DNA of 59,184 nt from the IMG/VR virus record IMGVR_UViG_3300048762_000055, positions 1 through 59,184 of that record, one strand, 5' to 3'. This DNA is from a virus (lineage: Duplodnaviria > Caudoviricetes). The notes under the pieces are model-generated. The model did no database searches. It was not told the DNA's origin and worked only from the letters and a program-made list of their open reading frames with translations. This document shows positions 18,156 to 26,266 of the stretch, one piece after another (within the stretch, counting starts at the first letter, position 1; every line of letters starts with the position of its first letter). A program made the position numbers and the translations under genes.

Positions 18156-21100
18156 TCGCGAGTGGCGTCTCGATAACCTTTATTTCATCCGCAGTGAGCA
18201 GGGCGAGCGCATTCCGTTCGTGCGCAATCCAGCGCAGCAGGCATTTTTCAATGATATGTGGCTGCGGAATATAATACCGAAAGCTCGAAAATTAGGAATG
18301 TCGACGTTCATAGAATTGCTGATGCTGGATGGCTGTATTTTCTCCAGTGGCAAGGTTTGCGGCATTGTTGATCGGTCACTGGATGATGCGGTCGACAAGC
18401 TTGGGATGATTGCGTTTGCCTATGACAATATGCCGGAGGAGATTCGCAAGGCTGTGCCGTTGGTGCGCCGCGCGGACAAATATCTGGAATGGGCGAACGG
18501 ATCGAATGTGAGCGTTGGCACGTCCTACCGCGGCGGCACGCCGGCGTTCCTGCATGTCTGTCTTACCGGCGACACCGAAATATATACGAAGAACGCGCAT
18601 CTTAAGCCGATTGAGGAGATCGAGCCCGGCGAACTTGTGCTGACGAGCAAAGGACGCTACCGGCCCGTAAAGGCAGTTATCAGAAATAGGCTTGCCGATC
18701 TTGGCGTTCGCCTTCTTGAAGTGTCTACCTTTGGCTGTCCGAACCCATTAAAAATCACTGAAAATCATATGATAATGGTGCGGAATGAGGACACCTATAA
18801 GCCAGAGTGGAGAGCGGCTGGCGAAGTAAAACGCGGCGATTACATAGCTTTTCCGTTGAATGAGCCATCCAATAATTTGCGCGATGGGACGATTCCTTTT
18901 GGTTCCATTCGCATCGTTCCAGATGATAATCTTGGTTGGCTGTGTGGATTTTATCTTGCCGAAGGCACTACACGAAAGCGCCATGGGAAGTACCTAACGG
19001 ATGTATCTTTTTCAATCGATAAAGACGAGGTGAGTGATACTCTAGCTGCCATTCATAGGCTCGGATTGAGCACCGCGCATCTAAAGCGTGGTGCCAAACA
19101 AATCAATGTTTATACGCACCCATATAGTCGGACGCGAGTGATCACCGTCAATTCCAAGGACTTTGCCGAATTTCTGTATGACAATTTTGGTGAGGGTGAT
19201 CGCAAGGCAATTCCCGACAAGATCATGAAATGGGGATCGGCCTTTATCCGTGGTCTAATCAAGGGATATTTTGACGGGGACGGTAGTTATAGCGACGATC
19301 ATGTGGTGAGTGCAGTTAGCACGCGGAAGCAGCTTATTTTCCAAATGCGTAGGCTGCTAATGTCGATGCGGTTCGGCGTTCCAGCAATTTACTTTGCGCC
19401 GGCTAGCAACCGATACGGCCGCAACTGCAAAGACGCGTGGACACTGAAACTTGGAGGGTCTGGAAACTGGAAATTCCGTAGACATTATGGTCTGCCGCTT
19501 CCTGTCCTCAATACAAAAAATGCACAGTTATCAGTTGCCAAAGGATGGCTCCCAACAGGACGAAAATTCTGGCGACGAGGCGCAGATCATTACTGGATGC
19601 GAATCACTGGCGTAAAGGAGATTGAGCCTGTCGAATTTGTCTATGATCTCGCCTTGGACGTCGAACCGCACGACTATGTGACTGTGAATGGCGTCGTTCA
19701 TAACAGCGAATACGGCAAGATCAGCGTCGACTCGCCTGATACAGCTACCGAAATCAAAACCGGTGCCATCACTGCGGTACCCATGACGGGACAGGTATTC
19801 GTCGAGAGCACTTGGCACGGTACTGGAGGCGAATTCTCCAAGATGACTATGGCTGCCAAGGCGCAGATGGATCGCCATGCACAGCTTACGCCGCTCGACT
19901 TCAAATTCCATTTCTACGGCTGGTGGCTGAAACCGGATTATCGGCTGGCTAATAACCTCGTGATTATCACGCAGGAACTCCGCGAGTATTTCAAGGATTT
20001 GGAGGCCAAGTTCGGCGTCAAGCTTGATGCCGACCAGATGGCTTGGTATCAGAATCGTTACACCGATCTCGGGCTCGACAAGACGCATGAGGAATTCCCC
20101 TCCTCATCCGAAGAGCTATTCCTGACGTCGAATGAAGGCGCGTTCTTCAAGCGGGAAATGTCGAAGGCTCGGCAGGATGGCCGCATTGGTGGTCTAGTGC
20201 CGTTTGACCCAACGCGGCGGGTCAATACGTTTTGGGATATTGGCGAGGATACAACGGCGATCTGGTGGCATCAGAGCGATGGGCTTCGGCATCGGGTAAT
20301 TGACTATTACGAGGAGGAGGGTTGGTCGCTGCAGGGTGCATGCGGGATGATCGACGATAAGCGCCGGACGCGGAAATTCGTCTATGACAAGCATTACGGC
20401 CCGCACGATATGGGCAATAAGGACTGGGGCAATTCGGCGCAGACCCGCAAACAAACGGCGAAGGGGCTCGGCGTTGAAATCACTGTGGTGCCACGGATCG
20501 ACAATAAGGACGATGCGATCGAGGCAGCGCGGCGAATGATCAACAATATGTGGTTTGATGCGGAGCATTGTTCGCTGGGTGTCGAGCGATTGGAGAACTA
20601 TCACAAGAAATGGAATAAGGCGCTTGGGGTCTATACGTCTGAGCCGGAACACGACGCCAACTCGCACTGTTTTGTAGGCGAAACTGAAATCTTGACCAGT
20701 AATGGCATTGAACGTATCAGTAACCTACCAGAAACAGGTGAGGTACTGACACAATGCGGTTTGAAGCCATATCGGAATCCTCGGATCACTCAGAAAAATG
20801 CCCAACTTGTCGAGGTCACGTTCTCCGACGGCCTTATGGTGAAATGTACGCCGGAGCATTTATTTCTGACGGCCGAAGGGTGGAAATCTGCCAGCAGCCT
20901 ATCGAGGGGTTCTTTGATCCAATCAACGTTGACCCAATTACCCAATATTTCGATGGCGGCCTATATAAAATGTGGCCCAGCGAACGCTATTTATCCCGCG
21001 CCGGACGACGATTACATATCGATGTTTGGACCGTTGCATTTGGGAAGATACCAAAAGGCTGCCACATCCATCACAAAGACGATGATCGGTTTAATAACCG

Positions 21101-21612
21101 ACTCTCAAATTTGGAATGTCTCCCAGCGTCTGAGCATCTATCTCTCACCTGGCATCAGCGAGCGGCTAAAGGATTCATTAGTAAATTTACTCCAAATGCC
21201 CGCATTCGCGCTGCCGAGTGGCATAAATCTGAAGCAGGGAGACTTTGGCATAGTCGGAATGCCAGACGCTCAAAGTCATGGGAAAAATGGAAACGAGAAG
21301 CTTATGCCTGCGATATTTGCGGGACAATCTTTAATCGCGTGGTTCGCAAAGGAGGCAACCCAGGTCGGTTTTGTTCCCACACCTGCCGGCACACTTTCTA
21401 TCGAAGGCGTAAGAAGCTTGCCGAACAAGCAGGATGTTTGGTGTCTGACGGTTCCTGAAGGTGAGCAATTTTCATTGGCAAATGGCGCGATCGTTCACAA
21501 TTGCGCCGACGCCCTCCAAACTGGCGCGTGCGGTCTGGTTCCTGACAAGGTAAAATCCGAATCGCGGTCGCGGATTGGCGAGCCGCCGAGGACTACGCAA
21601 TGGGCGTCGTAA
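18076..21612 (+). CDS. terL: Terminase large subunit with two inteins (about 518 aa spliced)
   Basis: KARKLGMST Walker A, FLHV/SE Walker B, VESTW coupling motif, FWDIG, HDANSH/CADA nuclease motifs. Confidence 0.95.
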   Translation: MENGQAVELEKVRATKAYRQRKAQLANREWRLDNLYFIRSEQGERIPFVRNPAQQAFFNDMWLRNIIPKARKLGMSTFIELLMLDGCIFSSGKVCGIVDRSLDDAVDKLGMIAFAYDNMPEEIRKAVPLVRRADKYLEWANGSNVSVGTSYRGGTPAFLHVCLTGDTEIYTKNAHLKPIEEIEPGELVLTSKGRYRPVKAVIRNRLADLGVRLLEVSTFGCPNPLKITENHMIMVRNEDTYKPEWRAAGEVKRGDYIAFPLNEPSNNLRDGTIPFGSIRIVPDDNLGWLCGFYLAEGTTRKRHGKYLTDVSFSIDKDEVSDTLAAIHRLGLSTAHLKRGAKQINVYTHPYSRTRVITVNSKDFAEFLYDNFGEGDRKAIPDKIMKWGSAFIRGLIKGYFDGDGSYSDDHVVSAVSTRKQLIFQMRRLLMSMRFGVPAIYFAPASNRYGRNCKDAWTLKLGGSGNWKFRRHYGLPLPVLNTKNAQLSVAKGWLPTGRKFWRRGADHYWMRITGVKEIEPVEFVYDLALDVEPHDYVTVNGVVHNSEYGKISVDSPDTATEIKTGAITAVPMTGQVFVESTWHGTGGEFSKMTMAAKAQMDRHAQLTPLDFKFHFYGWWLKPDYRLANNLVIITQELREYFKDLEAKFGVKLDADQMAWYQNRYTDLGLDKTHEEFPSSSEELFLTSNEGAFFKREMSKARQDGRIGGLVPFDPTRRVNTFWDIGEDTTAIWWHQSDGLRHRVIDYYEEEGWSLQGACGMIDDKRRTRKFVYDKHYGPHDMGNKDWGNSAQTRKQTAKGLGVEITVVPRIDNKDDAIEAARRMINNMWFDAEHCSLGVERLENYHKKWNKALGVYTSEPEHDANSHCFVGETEILTSNGIERISNLPETGEVLTQCGLKPYRNPRITQKNAQLVEVTFSDGLMVKCTPEHLFLTAEGWKSASSLSRGSLIQSTLTQLPNISMAAYIKCGPANAIYPAPDDDYISMFGPLHLGRYQKAATSITKTMIGLITDSQIWNVSQRLSIYLSPGISERLKDSLVNLLQMPAFALPSGINLKQGDFGIVGMPDAQSHGKNGNEKLMPAIFAGQSLIAWFAKEATQVGFVPTPAGTLSIEGVRSLPNKQDVWCLTVPEGEQFSLANGAIVHNCADALQTGACGLVPDKVKSESRSRIGEPPRTTQWAS
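18559..19704 (+). mobile_element. TerL intein 1 (382 aa) with in-frame LAGLIDADG endonuclease, in Walker B
   Basis: V|CLTGDT...ITENH...VVHN|S; GFYLAEG and GYFDGDGS. Confidence 0.95.
20668..21501 (+). mobile_element. TerL intein 2 (278 aa) in the nuclease motif, with no in-frame endonuclease
   Basis: H|CFVGET...CTPEH...DVWCLTV...IVHN|C. Confidence 0.93.
20754..21458 (+). CDS. HNH endonuclease with C-terminal Zn finger, nested in the -1 frame inside TerL intein 2
   Basis: LHIDVW...IPKGCHIHHKDDDRFNNRLSNLECL; CDIC...FCSHTC; GAGGT 9 nt before ATG. Confidence 0.85.
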   Translation: MRFEAISESSDHSEKCPTCRGHVLRRPYGEMYAGAFISDGRRVEICQQPIEGFFDPINVDPITQYFDGGLYKMWPSERYLSRAGRRLHIDVWTVAFGKIPKGCHIHHKDDDRFNNRLSNLECLPASEHLSLTWHQRAAKGFISKFTPNARIRAAEWHKSEAGRLWHSRNARRSKSWEKWKREAYACDICGTIFNRVVRKGGNPGRFCSHTCRHTFYRRRKKLAEQAGCLVSDGS

Positions 21613-22903: not shown

Positions 22904-25900
22904 GTGGCTGACGGTGATCTTCAAACCCTCGATCGACCGCCTGCAGACGATGGTATGACAATCGACGGGAATGCTGGCCTGCCGGCGGATGCGCCAGCGG
23001 CTGCGGTATTGTCGATAAGTTCGCTTTCGCCCGGCAAGCAATTCGATGTCCTGAAACAGCTTCATCTTTCCGACGCCGACCACACGAAAGAGTGGCGGGC
23101 AATGGCCGAGGAATGGTTTGCATTCCGCGCCGGCGAGCAATGGACCGCCGAGGACCGGGCCCTGCTCAATAGCCAACAGCGCCCCCATATCGTTTTTAAC
23201 CGTGTGCTGACCATCCTCAAAGCCGTGGCTGGCATGGAAATCAATGGCCGGCACGAGATTACATTCATTCCCCGCGGCACGCAGGATACGGCGGTTAACG
23301 AGATACTCTCGGCTGCGTCGAAATGGATGGCGGATGAGTGCGACGGCGAGGACGAGGAAAGTCAGGCGTTCGACGACACATGCACGGTGGGAATGGGATG
23401 GTGCCTATCCGATGATACGCTGGTGAGATTGCCTGAAACGCACTTTGCGACAACTCGGCTTTATTCAGGGAATGTCATTGAGATCAGCCTTGAAAATGGC
23501 AAGCGTCTGACCGGAACCCCCAATCACCCTGTACTCACGGATATGGGGTGGAAGCGACTGCATGAGATTTGCAACGGCGATAACCTGGTCAACGGCGATT
23601 TTCTTAAGATCATCCCCGGGCTGGCCATGCATAAGTTCGATGATGTTGAAACCCGCCTTCAGGATAGAATAAATGCGTTCGGCACAGGCCGCGAAACTTT
23701 GCGCTTTGCTACGCAGACTTCCGATTTCTATGGCGATGGAGCCGGAAGCAAAGTCCACGTTGTATATGCCGACAGCCTTTTGAGCGATAAGTTCAGGAAA
23801 TCCAAGATCTGCAAACCATTGCTGGAAAATTATTTCATTGGGTGGAATCTTCTTTCGGCGTGGCGCTCCTTTTTCTCTGGCAATGGCTTGGGTAAGCAGG
23901 CGATTCATGCCTCCAAACGTCTTGGATCGTTCCTCGGCAGACATTTTCCATGTCCGAATATGCCTAGCGACCTCATTCCCGCGCAAGTCTCTCCCGGCTT
24001 GGCGAATTCGCCTCGCTACGGTTTCCGGGCTGATTCCGATAAGGCCACCGATTTCGACAGTAGAAAGCCGTTCGTCAAAATACATGGAAATGAGTTTTTC
24101 GGTGGGCGTTGTGACGCAATGGCCTCCGGCGTGGCCGCGCAGAACATGGCCAGCGCGTTTCAACCTACTGGAAACGCTCATCAGGCTTATTCCAACTTTA
24201 TCCCCAATTTTTGCGAGTGGAAGCATCTCCTCGAAATAGAGGCGCGCAAGTTCGGCAGTAGAAACCTTGCAGCGTCGAAATTCATAACGCGGGTTACGAG
24301 CCGGGTCATCCGTCCAGTTGAGGATTTTGCTGTCCATGACGTAGGAACCTCCATTGGGTTTTTCCTTGCTGGAGATATTATTACATCGAACACGGAAAGT
24401 CGAATGTCTTACGAAGATGATCCTGCTGGCCTTTATGTGGAAGATTGCATCGACCCGCGCGAGATGTACTGGGACCGCACGGCTACGAAAAAGAACCTCT
24501 CGAATGCGCGCCGTCTTTCCCGTGTACGCCGTATGCCGCTTGGCGATGCGCTGTCGCTGTTTCCAGGCAAGACCGTGGAGCAATTGGACGCCACATGGGC
24601 CGATGCTGGCCCGATGGATTATCCAAAACGCACCATCGAGGAAAAGCGCAAGCGGGATGCCGATAATTCCTCAATGCAGGAATACGACGATAATTGCGAA
24701 GTCACGCTGGTGCAGATTCAGTGGTTCGAACGTGAGGAATACTGGATTGTCGCCAACACGCAGACCAATACCAAGACCGAATTGAGCGATGCGGAATATC
24801 GGCGATTCGGTAGCCGCATGAAGATGCTCGGTATGCCGGTACATGCGGCAAAGCTTACTCGCAAGGTTTACAAGCAGGCATGGATGGGCGGCGAATTGCT
24901 GCAGAAAGCCGGGCCCGCACCGATCAAAGGCAAGTTCTCTTGGGACTGCATTACTGGCGAATTCGATAAGTCGAAAAAGTCGTGGTTTGGCCTCGTGAAG
25001 GTCATGCGCGACCCGCAGATGTGGGCGAACAAGTGGCTTTCGCAGATCCTGCACATTCTCAACACGACGGCGAAGGGCGGCATTCTGGCCGAGACGTCAG
25101 CATTCGACGATCAGCGCGAGGCCGAGGAAGGCTATGCGCGACCCGATACGATCACCTGGCTGGCTGACGGCTCGCTGTCGGGCGATAAGCCCAAGATCAT
25201 GCCCAAGCCCGGCGCTGGCATGACAGATGGCTATCTCGGGCTCATGACGTTCGCCATCTCGTCGATCAAGGACGTGACCGGCATCAACCTCGAGCTACTC
25301 GGCCAGCAGGATCAAAACCAGCCCGGCATTATCGAGGCCATGCGCAAGCAGGCCGGTATGACGGTGCTGGCGACATTGTTCGATTCGCTCAGGCGGTTCC
25401 GCAAGAACGTGGGGCGCTCGCGGCTGTATTTCATTCAGAATTTCTTGTCGGACGGTCGGCTGATCCGTGTGGCGCAGCCTGATAACGTGCAGGCGATTGC
25501 GCTGGCCAAGGAAAGCACCACCGGCAAATACAGCGTGATTGTGGACGATACGCCGACGTCGCCAAATCAGAAGGAAGCGAATTGGGCGATCATCCAGCCG
25601 TTGCTCGGGGTGTTTAAAGAGCAGCTTATGTCCAATCCGCAGGTGTTCGGGATGCTGCTCGAATACTCGCCGTTGCCTAATCGCATCGTGGAGGCCATCA
25701 AGGGATTCATCGCCAAGCAGCAGAATGATCCGCAGGCGCAACAGGATCAACAGATTGCGAAACATTTGGCGATCACCAAGGAGGTCGCGCAAATCTCCGC
25801 ACTGCAGGCCACCGCTGAAATGAATAACAAAAAGGCCGGGGCTACCGAGGCGACGGCTATGTACGATATTGCCATGGCCCGCAAGATGCTGGCCGATAAC

Positions 25901-26266
25901 GATACGACCGGCCTAGATGCTCACCTGAAGGCCATGGAGGGCGCTGCCAAAGTCCAGACGGCTGCGGCCACTGCGGATAAGACTACTGCACAGGCTGCCC
26001 GTGAGCGTGCTGGGGTCGTGAATGACCGGCTAGAGACGCACGCCAAGGTCATAGGGGCTGTTTCTGACGCTCATCGGGCGACTACCGATGGCCAAGCGTC
26101 GCATGTGGGGGCTCTCATCGATCATATTGGCGCTATCGGTGGGCTGCATCGCGATCTTGCTGCGGCGCACAAGGATCATGTGAATGCGACGCGCACGGAG
26201 GCAACCCCCATTCCAGTTCCGCAACCGCAACAGCCTCAACCGTCGGCATCGCCTGGTGGGCCGTGA
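22904..26266 (+). CDS. P22-like portal protein with intein (about 790 aa spliced)
   Basis: F..GEQW, RPHIVFNRV, GMGW, FGLVKVMRDPQMWANK, VTGINLELLG. Confidence 0.9.
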   Translation: MADGDLQTLDRPPADDGMTIDGNAGLPADAPAAAVLSISSLSPGKQFDVLKQLHLSDADHTKEWRAMAEEWFAFRAGEQWTAEDRALLNSQQRPHIVFNRVLTILKAVAGMEINGRHEITFIPRGTQDTAVNEILSAASKWMADECDGEDEESQAFDDTCTVGMGWCLSDDTLVRLPETHFATTRLYSGNVIEISLENGKRLTGTPNHPVLTDMGWKRLHEICNGDNLVNGDFLKIIPGLAMHKFDDVETRLQDRINAFGTGRETLRFATQTSDFYGDGAGSKVHVVYADSLLSDKFRKSKICKPLLENYFIGWNLLSAWRSFFSGNGLGKQAIHASKRLGSFLGRHFPCPNMPSDLIPAQVSPGLANSPRYGFRADSDKATDFDSRKPFVKIHGNEFFGGRCDAMASGVAAQNMASAFQPTGNAHQAYSNFIPNFCEWKHLLEIEARKFGSRNLAASKFITRVTSRVIRPVEDFAVHDVGTSIGFFLAGDIITSNTESRMSYEDDPAGLYVEDCIDPREMYWDRTATKKNLSNARRLSRVRRMPLGDALSLFPGKTVEQLDATWADAGPMDYPKRTIEEKRKRDADNSSMQEYDDNCEVTLVQIQWFEREEYWIVANTQTNTKTELSDAEYRRFGSRMKMLGMPVHAAKLTRKVYKQAWMGGELLQKAGPAPIKGKFSWDCITGEFDKSKKSWFGLVKVMRDPQMWANKWLSQILHILNTTAKGGILAETSAFDDQREAEEGYARPDTITWLADGSLSGDKPKIMPKPGAGMTDGYLGLMTFAISSIKDVTGINLELLGQQDQNQPGIIEAMRKQAGMTVLATLFDSLRRFRKNVGRSRLYFIQNFLSDGRLIRVAQPDNVQAIALAKESTTGKYSVIVDDTPTSPNQKEANWAIIQPLLGVFKEQLMSNPQVFGMLLEYSPLPNRIVEAIKGFIAKQQNDPQAQQDQQIAKHLAITKEVAQISALQATAEMNNKKAGATEATAMYDIAMARKMLADNDTTGLDAHLKAMEGAAKVQTAAATADKTTAQAARERAGVVNDRLETHAKVIGAVSDAHRATTDGQASHVGALIDHIGAIGGLHRDLAAAHKDHVNATRTEATPIPVPQPQQPQPSASPGGP
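23402..24391 (+). mobile_element. Portal intein (330 aa), ends TSN|T, with no in-frame endonuclease
   Basis: W|CLSDDT...LTGTPNHPVLT..GW...VHDVGT...ITSN|T. Confidence 0.88.
23465..24337 (-). CDS. Antisense gene inside the portal intein: two HTH repeats plus Vsr/DUF559-like endonuclease
   Basis: LARLYFEEMLPLAKIGDKVGIS and LISMYFDERLSTVEIGGLIGIS HTHs; NE..F...QKAVGIYNVDFA...IAIEI; GGAGG 10 nt before ATG. Confidence 0.8.
   Translation of the reverse strand: MDSKILNWTDDPARNPRYEFRRCKVSTAELARLYFEEMLPLAKIGDKVGISLMSVSSRLKRAGHVLRGHAGGHCVTTPTEKLISMYFDERLSTVEIGGLIGISPETVARRIRQAGRDLRGNEVARHIRTWKMSAEERSKTFGGMNRLLTQAIAREKGAPRRKKIPPNEIIFQQWFADLGFPELIAQKAVGIYNVDFASGSIAIEIGSLRSKAQSFAACAERIYSILKAGFNIIELMHGQPGDDLKKIAVDQVIAVANLMQSLPPHIREYRVIGGSGQTLAIFKADLNDIP

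What the first reader, a model, noticed from the sequence alone, without database searches (positions are those of the whole stretch)
23402..24391. Portal intein hides its putative endonuclease gene on the opposite strand
Seen: the portal carries a 330-aa intein (C...TPNH...TSN|T) whose middle resembles no domain I recognise. The reverse strand holds an open 290-codon ORF (24337-23465) with two tandem HTH repeats and a Vsr/DUF559-like core (NE..F...QKAVGIYNVDFA...IAIEI). Its ATG is the complement of the His codon in the intein's VHDVG block, and a GGAGG lies 10 nt upstream, so gene and ribosome site are wholly inside the intein. Both strands stay open over about 870 nt. Known: canonical inteins carry LAGLIDADG or HNH domains in frame. 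Inference: this is a two-gene mobile element where splicing is encoded on the sense strand and homing on the antisense strand, so the nuclease could be expressed independently of the late portal gene. I cannot say whether this architecture is already published.
Basis: partly seen in the sequence, partly recalled or inferred. Interest (0 to 1): 0.87.

Follow-up and report, generated by a model that had tools for sequence, protein, structure and literature searches.

The report
Portal intein with antisense homing-nuclease gene
A self-splicing protein insert (intein) in this phage's portal gene carries, on the opposite DNA strand and codon against codon, a conserved gene for a DNA-binding nuclease that most likely spreads the insert; the layout is real but was described for other phage genes in a 2025 preprint.

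Summary
Window 23402-24391 is a 330-codon intein (Cys1, TPNH, Asn330, Thr+1) in a P22-type portal gene. The opposite strand holds a 290-codon ORF (24337-23465), in exact codon register.

The antisense ORF is a real gene, not a mirror artefact:
- Two HTH domains (Pfam Sigma70_r4, E 2.8e-14).
- Where the two frames can be told apart, relatives conserve the antisense protein and not the sense one.

All 17 related loci show a longer sense frame open in the same register. One locus (L014) has a broken antisense gene.

The intein looks recently gained or lost. All 120 closest portal homologues listed lack it. Contigs from three public runs join precisely across it.

Expression, cutting and splicing are not shown. 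The expected general-base His is Lys here.

The architecture is in print: Gosselin, Arsenault and Gogarten (bioRxiv 10.1101/2025.01.02.630785) describe "anti-sense VSR-like HEN" inteins in actinobacteriophages. This scan also found the layout earlier on other DNA. This case is therefore a new member, in a new host gene (portal), with unusually deep overlap with the splicing domain.

The parts
22904..26266 (+). Portal gene (1120 codons including the intein)
   Evidence: Pfam P22_portal, E 1.6e-94. ORF listed.
23402..24391 (+). Intein, 330 codons: Cys1 ... Asn330, followed by Thr+1 at 24392
   Evidence: Translation. Intein_splicing E 2.6e-5, 24.5 bits, below the 35.8 cut-off. TIGR01445 scores 23.0 bits against a cut-off of 24.5. 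The intein is precisely absent from P0154 and from contigs of runs X2-X4.
23402..23596 (+). N-terminal splicing lobe (intein residues 1-65; block B TPNH at 23516-23527)
   Evidence: Sequence. This is the part where the sense frame is the better conserved one (antisense columns 241-296). The block names are recalled.
23597..24310 (+). Sense-frame middle of the intein: a read-through 'shadow' of the antisense gene
   Evidence: No Pfam family matches here. Sense identity between the three portal inteins is only 0.15-0.19 opposite antisense codons 61-180. No structure was predicted for it.
24311..24391 (+). C-terminal splicing region (PVEDFAVHDVGTSIGFFLAGDIITSN)
   Evidence: Translation. Conserved in L001 and L002.
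23465..24337 (-). Antisense ORF, 290 codons plus a TGA stop; protein P0001
   Evidence: It has 979 matches at E<=1e-3 in the 1.84-billion-protein library. The AlphaFold2 model has mean pLDDT 87.3.
24155..24259 (-). HTH 1 (P0001 residues 27-61)
   Evidence: Sigma70_r4 stretch at 32-67. Helices 27-36, 41-48 and 52-61 in the model.
23999..24103 (-). HTH 2 (P0001 residues 79-113)
   Evidence: Sigma70_r4, Sigma70_r4_2 and HTH_AsnC-type hits at 81-114. Helices 79-88, 93-100 and 104-113. The family profile matches the tandem-HTH chain 2lvs_A, E 8.1e-8.
23483..23908 (-). Nuclease domain (P0001 residues about 144-285). Invariant E168 (23834-23836), D195 (23753-23755) and E204 (23726-23728). K211 (23705-23707) stands where most relatives have His.
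   Evidence: Invariant columns in the 37-sequence alignment. The domain model has pLDDT 86.2. Foldseek top hit is 3r3p, the I-Bth0305I catalytic domain: prob 1.00, E 2.2e-3, TM 0.60-0.63 by target length. The profile hits 3hrl, E 1.9e-4.
24348..24352 (-). GGAGG, 10 nt before the antisense ATG
   Evidence: GAGG is kept in L001 and L002.
24377..24385 (-). Candidate extended -10 element (TGTAATAAT) inside the intein. Inference only.
   Evidence: Read. The promoter scan, which needs both hexamers, found nothing on the minus strand. In L001 and L002 the place is AT-rich but the TG is kept only in L001.

Best explanation
This is a mobile intein of the 'non-canonical' kind.

The sense strand encodes the portal protein with a contiguous Hint splicing domain. 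That domain should excise 330 residues after translation and rejoin GMGW to TES.

The space between the two splicing lobes is filled on the opposite strand by a separate gene for a homing endonuclease. It has two helix-turn-helix DNA-binding modules and a Vsr-like (EDxHD-type, PD-(D/E)XK-fold) nuclease domain.

The two genes share the same triplets. The sense frame therefore stays open as long as the nuclease gene avoids TTA, CTA and TCA, all of which have synonymous alternatives. The sense translation of the middle is a tolerated filler loop.

The nuclease, translated from its own GGAGG and ATG inside the intein, is inferred to cut intein-less portal alleles in co-infecting phages. Repair would then copy the whole element together with a short flank.

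Shown here: the gene's reality, its fold family, its conservation, the codon register, and the presence/absence polymorphism.

Inferred: transcription, cutting, homing and splicing.
For: 1. Real domains on the antisense strand. Sigma70_r4 matches twice, E 2.8e-14. Two PHROG families annotated 'HNH endonuclease' match the HTH part, E 2e-7 and 6.5e-6. The AF2 model has mean pLDDT 87.3. The domain-only model's best PDB match is the I-Bth0305I catalytic domain 3r3p (prob 1.00, E 2.2e-3), followed by XPF and 3hrl. The family profile hits 3hrl at E 1.9e-4. 12 of 37 aligned relatives hit Pfam MTES_1575 and 2 of 37 hit DUF559.

2. Selection acts on the antisense frame. Among the three portal inteins, antisense codons 61-180 are 0.33-0.46 identical against 0.15-0.19 for the sense frame. 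Most changes fall on antisense third positions. E168, D195 and E204 are invariant in 37 sequences. GC and AT skew change sign in 23600-24200.

3. Recurrence. In 17 of 17 loci (13 distinct sequences) the match lies opposite a longer open frame in the same codon register. 9 of 10 of those sense frames hit Intein_splicing at E<=0.01, and 3 of 10 reach Pfam's cut-off. Host genes are Mu-F-like, portal, VG15 and InPase.

4. Mobility. The 120 best portal homologues listed are 701-866 aa, so 0 of 120 carry the intein. P0154 (790 aa = 1120 - 330) is 96% identical over the 624-residue C-extein and identical through the N-extein up to the residues at the junction. It differs in a short patch at the junction. 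One contig in each of runs X2, X3 and X4 (two studies) joins across the intein.

5. A translation signal lies inside the intein.
Against: - No minus-strand sigma-70-type promoter and no terminator were found in 23000-25000.
- All neighbouring genes from 26594 to 50259 are on the + strand, so the antisense gene faces late transcription head-on.
- The window's own protein gets no Pfam nuclease family at E<=1.
- Foldseek with the whole model found nothing at E<=0.001. The domain hit, E 2.2e-3, is modest.
- The position that is His in most relatives (GGxWH) is Lys211 here and in the closest relatives. In I-Bth0305I the matching His is described as the general base (passages seen in PMC3239194). 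Activity is therefore uncertain.
- The intein scores below the curated cut-offs of Pfam and NCBIfam. It has Ser, not His, before the final Asn.
- A stop-free in-register antisense frame is not very rare in this phage: 6 of 82 windows.
- The loci were found with the antisense protein itself, so an open antisense frame over the matched part is partly by construction.
Confidence: 0.8

Rival explanations
1. The antisense gene is a leftover. A free-standing Vsr-like endonuclease gene once landed backwards in a mini-intein and is now inactive or on its way to decay. The intein persists by vertical descent only, because the portal needs it to splice.
For: Lys stands in place of the general-base His in the window's protein and its closest relatives. 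No promoter was found. One relative, L014, has two in-frame stops in the antisense gene while its sense frame stays open, so decay does happen in this family. The preprint says that several of its VSR-like cases look vertically inherited (section 15 read).
Against: The ORF is intact at full length. R209 and K211 are invariant among P0001, P0003 and P0004 despite only 49% identity to P0001. Substitutions concentrate on antisense third positions. The intein is missing from an allele whose 624-residue C-extein is 96% identical and from 120 of 120 nearest homologues. That points to a recent gain or loss. By codon usage about 6 stops would be expected once selection lapsed.
Confidence: 0.15
2. The antisense protein is expressed but acts as a DNA-binding regulator or helper, not as the homing nuclease. 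For example, it might repress or time portal expression.
For: The strongest matches are to HTH domains of sigma-factor and resolvase type. The catalytic His is missing.
Against: The acidic residues E168, D195 and E204 of the nuclease core are invariant across 37 relatives. The fold matches a proven homing endonuclease best. The family is tied to inteins in several unrelated host genes, which fits mobility better than regulation of one gene.
Confidence: 0.05
3. It is a mirror artefact. Only the sense strand is functional, and the antisense ORF is an accidental open frame whose apparent conservation reflects the sense protein.
For: The in-register antisense frame is the easiest to keep open (6 of 82 windows). 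The C-terminal motif REYRVIGGSG is the codon-by-codon mirror of intein block B, TGTPNHPVLT. In antisense columns 241-296 the sense frame is the better conserved one.
Against: A mirror frame would not hit curated HTH families at E 2.8e-14, give a confident fold model or match 3r3p. In the middle the sense frame is only 0.15-0.19 identical, while the antisense frame is 0.33-0.46. The sense middle has no family hit.
Confidence: 0.02

Closest known systems
Non-canonical actinobacteriophage inteins with an 'anti-sense VSR-like HEN' (Gosselin, Arsenault, Gogarten, bioRxiv 10.1101/2025.01.02.630785, version of 2025-10-20). I read the abstract, sections 8, 15 and 28, and passages.
   Same: A contiguous intein whose sense frame is open. 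The homing endonuclease is a separate ORF on the opposite strand. The nuclease is related to Vsr and 3R3P (their HHpred E 4.6e-5; my Foldseek top hit is the same entry). It has a helical N-terminal part that is absent from Vsr. The in-frame middle has no recognisable fold. My tblastn also hit 12 Gordonia phage records; these may be their cases, which I did not check.
   Different: [quoted passage not shown] Here the host is a P22-type portal in an environmental phage record of unnamed host; relatives sit in phages recorded with Salmonella, Aggregatibacter (Actinobacillus), Vibrio and Idiomarinaceae hosts. [quoted passage not shown] Here the ORF covers intein residues 22-312 of 330, including block B. 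The word 'register' does not occur in their text. Their supplements were not seen.
I-Bth0305I and the EDxHD (Vsr-like) homing endonuclease family (Taylor et al. 2011, PMC3239194, passages read; Dassa et al. 2009, PMC2677866, passages read).
   Same: Two-part build: N-terminal DNA-binding modules and a C-terminal Vsr-like catalytic domain. 3r3p is the best structural match. An acidic residue is conserved in the core.
   Different: I-Bth0305I sits in a group I intron, on the sense strand. The His of the composite motif is Lys in the window's protein. The DNA-binding part here is two sigma-r4-like HTH; NUMODs were not looked for. Identity to 3r3p in the Foldseek alignment is 14%.
'Fractured genes': split inteins with a free-standing Vsr-like or GIY-YIG endonuclease gene between the halves (Dassa et al. 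2009, PMC2677866).
   Same: An independent endonuclease gene of the Vsr-like kind sits at the endonuclease slot of an intein, with its own translation start.
   Different: There the host gene is broken into two ORFs and, as I understand the passages and figure legend read, the endonuclease gene runs in the direction of the host gene and overlaps the downstream half by 6-69 bp. Here the host frame is unbroken and the nuclease gene is antisense. 'Antisense' occurs 0 times in that paper.
Antisense or out-of-frame LAGLIDADG gene in the cyanobacterial DnaX intein (Gorbalenya 1998, known to me only through citations; Phillips et al., bioRxiv 10.64898/2026.09.14.751524, abstract and section 17 read).
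   Same: A homing endonuclease is encoded in a frame other than the intein's. dN/dS is low in the endonuclease frame and high in the intein frame across the overlap.
   Different: A different nuclease family and a cellular host gene. The two preprints describe the frame differently (antisense versus +2). I could not read Gorbalenya 1998, which is not held.
Canonical bifunctional inteins with an in-frame LAGLIDADG or HNH domain. The first terminase intein of this same window is an example (LAGLIDADG_3).
   Same: A Hint splicing domain split by an endonuclease-coding insert, and mobility by homing.
   Different: One polypeptide there. Here there are two genes on two strands.

Membership tests
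Intein (Hint splicing domain, class 1) | Cys, Ser or Thr as first residue | tested here: met
   Cys at 23402-23404.
Intein (Hint splicing domain, class 1) | Block B TxxH | tested here: met
   TPNH at residues 39-42. The same block is found in 12 related loci.
Intein (Hint splicing domain, class 1) | C-terminal Asn followed by Cys, Ser or Thr | tested here: met
   ...ITSN|T. The penultimate residue is Ser, not the common His. That some active inteins lack this His is recalled, not tested.
Intein (Hint splicing domain, class 1) | Curated profile score | tested here: inconclusive
   Intein_splicing scores 24.5 bits against a cut-off of 35.8 (E 2.6e-5). TIGR01445 scores 23.0 against 24.5.
Intein (Hint splicing domain, class 1) | In-frame insertion at a conserved host site, absent from orthologues | tested here: met
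   P0154 has 790 aa and lacks exactly the 330 residues. 0 of the 120 nearest homologues listed carry it. Contigs join across it.
Intein (Hint splicing domain, class 1) | Protein splicing | not testable with these tools
   Needs expression of the precursor.
Non-canonical intein with anti-sense VSR-like HEN (Gosselin et al. preprint) | Contiguous intein with the sense frame open across the endonuclease region | tested here: met
   0 stops in the sense frame over 23465-24337. ORF 22904-26266.
Non-canonical intein with anti-sense VSR-like HEN (Gosselin et al. preprint) | Complete endonuclease ORF on the opposite strand inside the intein | tested here: met
   24337-23465 lies inside 23402-24391.
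Non-canonical intein with anti-sense VSR-like HEN (Gosselin et al. preprint) | Predicted structure matches the Vsr / 3R3P core | tested here: met
   3r3p is the top hit: prob 1.00, E 2.2e-3, TM 0.60-0.63 by target length. Vsr itself (1cw0) was not among the rows shown.
Non-canonical intein with anti-sense VSR-like HEN (Gosselin et al. preprint) | In-frame middle without a recognisable fold | tested here: inconclusive
   No family hit and low conservation.
EDxHD / Vsr-like homing endonucleases (I-Bth0305I) | Vsr-like catalytic fold | tested here: met
EDxHD / Vsr-like homing endonucleases (I-Bth0305I) | Composite catalytic motif E, D, H, D | tested here: not met
   E168 and D195 are present. The position where most relatives have His is Lys211. 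The last Asp was not mapped. I therefore do not file the window's protein as a typical EDxHD member; it works like one at the level of fold.
EDxHD / Vsr-like homing endonucleases (I-Bth0305I) | Separate N-terminal DNA-binding modules | tested here: met
   Two HTH. NUMOD motifs were not tested.
EDxHD / Vsr-like homing endonucleases (I-Bth0305I) | Site-specific cleavage next to the insertion site | not testable with these tools
   Needs a cleavage assay.
Fractured gene with split intein (Dassa et al. 2009) | Host gene and intein broken into two ORFs around the endonuclease gene | tested here: not met
   There is a single open frame, 22904-26266.
Pfam DUF559 / MTES_1575 (restriction-endonuclease-like) | Profile match | tested here: inconclusive
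   P0001 itself has no hit at E<=1. 12 of 37 relatives hit MTES_1575 (best E 3.3e-7, below the 38.2-bit cut-off in the rows seen) and 2 of 37 hit DUF559.

The most novel reading that the evidence does not exclude
The nuclease gene and the Hint domain may not be a recent chance pairing. They may be one long co-evolved, dual-coded unit.

The last 45 or so residues of the nuclease (a helix and a beta-hairpin, modelled with high confidence) are written on the very codons of the intein's N-terminal lobe, including block B. Both proteins seem to constrain those codons:
- 52 of 58 nuclease-bearing family proteins carry the mirror of block B.
- The sense Val/Ile codon opposite the conserved Tyr ends in A in 9 of 12 distinct loci.

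The exact antiparallel codon register would then be the rule that lets this endonuclease lineage live in inteins of many different phage genes.
Probability: 0.4. Interest if true: 0.55.

Novelty: new member of a known kind. Interest (0 to 1): 0.35.

Why it matters
Gene callers and phage annotators allow one gene per stretch of DNA, so these nuclease genes go unannotated. In the three named phage records I opened, the match lies under a 'head protein' or 'head morphogenesis protein' CDS on the other strand.

This case widens the known range of the antisense Vsr-like layout in three ways:
- To a portal gene, a host protein type the preprint does not list among its four for non-canonical inteins.
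- To phages outside the actinobacteriophage collection the preprint surveyed: relatives lie in phages recorded with Salmonella, Aggregatibacter (Actinobacillus), Vibrio and Idiomarinaceae hosts. The host of the window's own phage is not named.
- To a deeper overlap, where part of the nuclease ORF is written on the codons of the intein's N-terminal splicing lobe.

It also comes with a natural, near-identical intein-less allele. That is the material needed for a clean homing and cleavage test.

For theory, it is a worked example of how a selfish gene can sit inside an essential gene without breaking it: it needs to avoid only three codons.

Tried and rejected
- Whole-model Foldseek against the PDB gave no match at E<=0.001. 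The two HTH and the nuclease domain are probably placed loosely. Folding the domain alone solved this.
- phmmer of P0001 against PDB sequences gave nothing meaningful (best E 0.68).
- The promoter/terminator scan of 23000-25000 found one + strand site and no terminator, fewer than in the shuffles. It says nothing for or against an antisense promoter of another type.
- RNA evidence. The one RNA run offered (X1, a metatranscriptome held as contigs, word share 0.18) covers pieces of the exteins only, and contigs carry no strand. It cannot test antisense transcription. None of the four runs covers 23582-24372. I draw nothing from that gap itself, only from the contigs that join across it.
- I asked whether the sense-frame motif DFYGDG...VHVVYAD (DFHGDG in relatives) belongs to the intein. 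I read it as the mirror of the nuclease core (QKAVGIYNVDFA...IAIEI), because relatives' antisense frames hit MTES_1575 and DUF559 there. I did not test this further.
- I considered a fractured gene or split intein and rejected it: the frame is continuous.
- Gorbalenya 1998 could not be read. What I say of it comes from two preprints that cite it and do not agree on the frame.
- Literature searches run. The first searches with 'opposite strand' and 'antisense' did not surface the key preprint, which writes 'anti-sense'. It came up with 'inteins, PhagesDB, homing endonuclease', after an earlier scan note pointed to a 2025 preprint.
- I did not ask for the supplements of the preprint (tables of clusters, figures of models). 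They may list a portal case or the codon register.
Full report
WHAT IS THERE

The window is a 59,184-base virus record, estimated 91% complete. The ORF 22904-26266 (+) is a P22-type portal (Pfam P22_portal, E 1.6e-94).

Residues 167-496 (23402-24391) form a 330-residue insert:
- It begins CLSDDTLV, has TPNH at residues 39-42, and ends DIITSN. Thr follows it.
- It scores as an intein below the curated cut-offs: Intein_splicing 24.5 bits against 35.8 (E 2.6e-5), and TIGR01445 23.0 against 24.5.
- Its N-terminal 136 residues match PHROG 15127 'head protein', E 4.8e-17.

On the minus strand, 24337-23465 is a 290-codon ORF, P0001:
- Its ATG is the complement of the His codon of AVHDVG.
- GGAGG (24352-24348) lies 10 nt upstream.
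- The two frames use the same triplets in opposite directions.

THE ANTISENSE ORF IS A GENE

P0001 hits Sigma70_r4 twice (E 2.8e-14) and several other HTH families. The sense-frame middle hits nothing.

In the 1.84-billion-protein library it has 979 matches at E<=1e-3 and 109 at E<=1e-10. Among the 151 best on file, 58 carry the nuclease core motif by my own regular expression. The other 93 look like HTH-only matches to longer proteins.

A 37-sequence alignment has E168, D195 and E204 invariant. With that alignment AlphaFold2 gives mean pLDDT 87.3. The model shows two three-helix bundles (27-61 and 79-113), then an alpha/beta domain.

Nuclease evidence:
- Foldseek with the whole model found nothing at E<=0.001.
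- The domain alone (residues 141-290, 11-sequence alignment, pLDDT 86.2) has as its best PDB matches the two chains of 3r3p, the catalytic domain of the homing endonuclease I-Bth0305I (prob 1.00, E 2.2e-3 and 9.1e-3, TM 0.60-0.63 by target length). XPF and 3hrl follow.
- The family profile also hits 3hrl ('endonuclease-like protein'), E 1.9e-4, and a tandem-HTH protein, 2lvs, E 8.1e-8.
- 12 of 37 relatives hit Pfam MTES_1575 and 2 of 37 hit DUF559, all weakly.

One caveat on activity. Where most relatives read GGxWH, the window's protein and its closest relatives have Lys (K211, with R209). Taylor et al. describe the matching His of I-Bth0305I as the presumed general base (passages).

WHICH STRAND IS SELECTED

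Two IMG/VR contigs (L001, L002) carry the same intein at the same portal site (CGMGW|C...TSN|T). Their antisense ORFs are intact, at 296 and 290 codons.

In a codon alignment of the three:
- Antisense codons 61-180: antisense identity 0.33-0.46, sense identity 0.15-0.19. Changes are most frequent at antisense third positions.
- Antisense codons 181-240 (nuclease core): both frames are about 0.66-0.69 identical.
- Antisense columns 241-296 (opposite the intein's N-terminal lobe): the sense frame is the better conserved one, 0.54-0.83 against 0.40-0.75.

So each strand rules its own part, and they meet over block B. The antisense REYRVIGGSG is the codon-by-codon mirror of sense TGTPNHPVLT. The same mirror motif sits 40-90 residues after the nuclease core in 52 of the 58 nuclease-bearing library proteins. 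This suggests that nearly all of them lie opposite inteins.

GC and AT skew change sign in 23600-24200, as expected if the coding strand switches there.

CHANCE

The sense frame stays open if the antisense gene avoids TTA, CTA and TCA. With the window's codon usage that has P = 0.0016 for 24 Leu and 19 Ser (about 6 stops expected). However, 6 of 82 overlapping 291-codon windows of other genes in the window are stop-free in this frame. A single instance proves little.

The weight comes from recurrence:
- In 17 of 17 loci (13 distinct sequences; L004-L008 are alike) the match to P0001 lies opposite a longer open frame, always in the same register.
- 9 of 10 such sense frames hit Intein_splicing at E<=0.01, and 3 of 10 reach the cut-off. 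Host domains are Phage_Mu_F, Phage_portal, VG15 and InPase.
- tblastn found matches in 90 named phage records. In the three I opened (Aaphi23, Salmonella phage SGP009, Idiomarinaceae phage 1N2-2) the match lies antisense to an annotated head or head-morphogenesis CDS.

Against a blanket claim: in L014 the antisense gene is broken by two stops while the sense frame stays open. The loci were also found with the antisense protein, which favours intact copies.

MOBILITY

The 120 best portal homologues listed are 701-866 residues long, so none has the intein.

P0154 (790 aa) is 96% identical over the 624-residue C-extein and identical through the N-extein up to the residues at the junction. At the junction it reads AGMGF|VENRLSY, against VGMGW|[intein]|TESRMSY in the window. 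The patch of change at the junction is what co-conversion of flanks, or target-site divergence, would leave.

Contigs of three public runs join across the intein:
- X2 and X3 (one study): one contig each, 23399 to 24410, with 20 other letters between.
- X4 (another study): one contig, with 73 letters between.

GMGW|T, the site the intein would need, occurs in 28 of the 56 homologues my motif search matched.

EXPRESSION

This is the weak point. The scan found no minus-strand promoter or terminator. A TGTAATAAT at 24385-24377, inside the intein, could be an extended -10 element. That is my reading and is only partly kept in L001 and L002. The one RNA run cannot show strand.

WHAT IS KNOWN

Gosselin, Arsenault and Gogarten (bioRxiv 10.1101/2025.01.02.630785) report 63 non-canonical inteins in actinobacteriophages. 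Among them are 'anti-sense VSR-like HEN' inteins, with matches to Vsr (1CW0) and 3R3P. The host proteins they list are DNA polymerase, minor capsid, terminase and thymidylate synthase. They propose origin by invasion of an intein by a free-standing endonuclease gene.

They cite Gorbalenya 1998 and Gogarten 2002 for antisense LAGLIDADG genes in inteins. A 2026 preprint treats the DnaX case as a +2 frame and shows frame-specific dN/dS. Out-of-frame HNH genes in a non-intein insertion are in PMC11855218. Dassa et al. 2009 described the Vsr-like family between split-intein halves.

This scan also met the same layout earlier on other DNA.

VERDICT

This is a real, well-supported instance of a recently described kind. 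New here:
- The host gene, a P22-type portal.
- The occurrence outside actinobacteriophages.
- The depth of overlap with the splicing domain.
- The strict codon register across all loci checked.
- The Lys-for-His change.
- A near-identical empty allele.

Noticed in passing
window 20668-21501 (intein), 20754-21458 (ORF): The second intein of the terminase large subunit (CFVGETEIL ... IVHN|C) carries a 234-aa HNH endonuclease ORF on the same strand in another frame (HNH_3 E 6.4e-15; phrog_15471 E 7.9e-27). In the window and in all 11 related IMG/VR loci (12 of 12) the HNH frame is nested in a longer open frame offset by one base.
   Followed up: partly
window 18559-19704: The first terminase intein (CLTGDTEIY ... 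VVHN|S) has an ordinary in-frame LAGLIDADG domain (LAGLIDADG_3, E 1.7e-8). One packaging gene therefore holds a canonical and a non-canonical intein side by side.
   Followed up: no
L014:2650-3696 (+): A relative in a portal-domain protein has its antisense nuclease gene broken by two in-frame stops. One replaces the conserved Tyr opposite block B. The sense frame stays open for 932 codons. It looks like a decaying copy.
   Followed up: partly
window 23399-24410: The intein-less allele seen in contigs of runs X2 and X3 differs from the window in a 20-base patch right at the junction. The flanks are nearly identical (0-3 other letters in about 500 bases upstream). This may be a co-conversion tract or a target-site variant that escapes cutting.
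   Followed up: partly
L015 (Aaphi23), L016 (Salmonella phage SGP009), L017 (Idiomarinaceae phage 1N2-2): In these named, published phage genomes the homologous antisense ORF (340, 272 and 321 open codons) is not annotated. The only feature there is the head or head-morphogenesis CDS on the other strand.
   Followed up: partly
I checked only the portal intein and the two terminase inteins.
   Followed up: no
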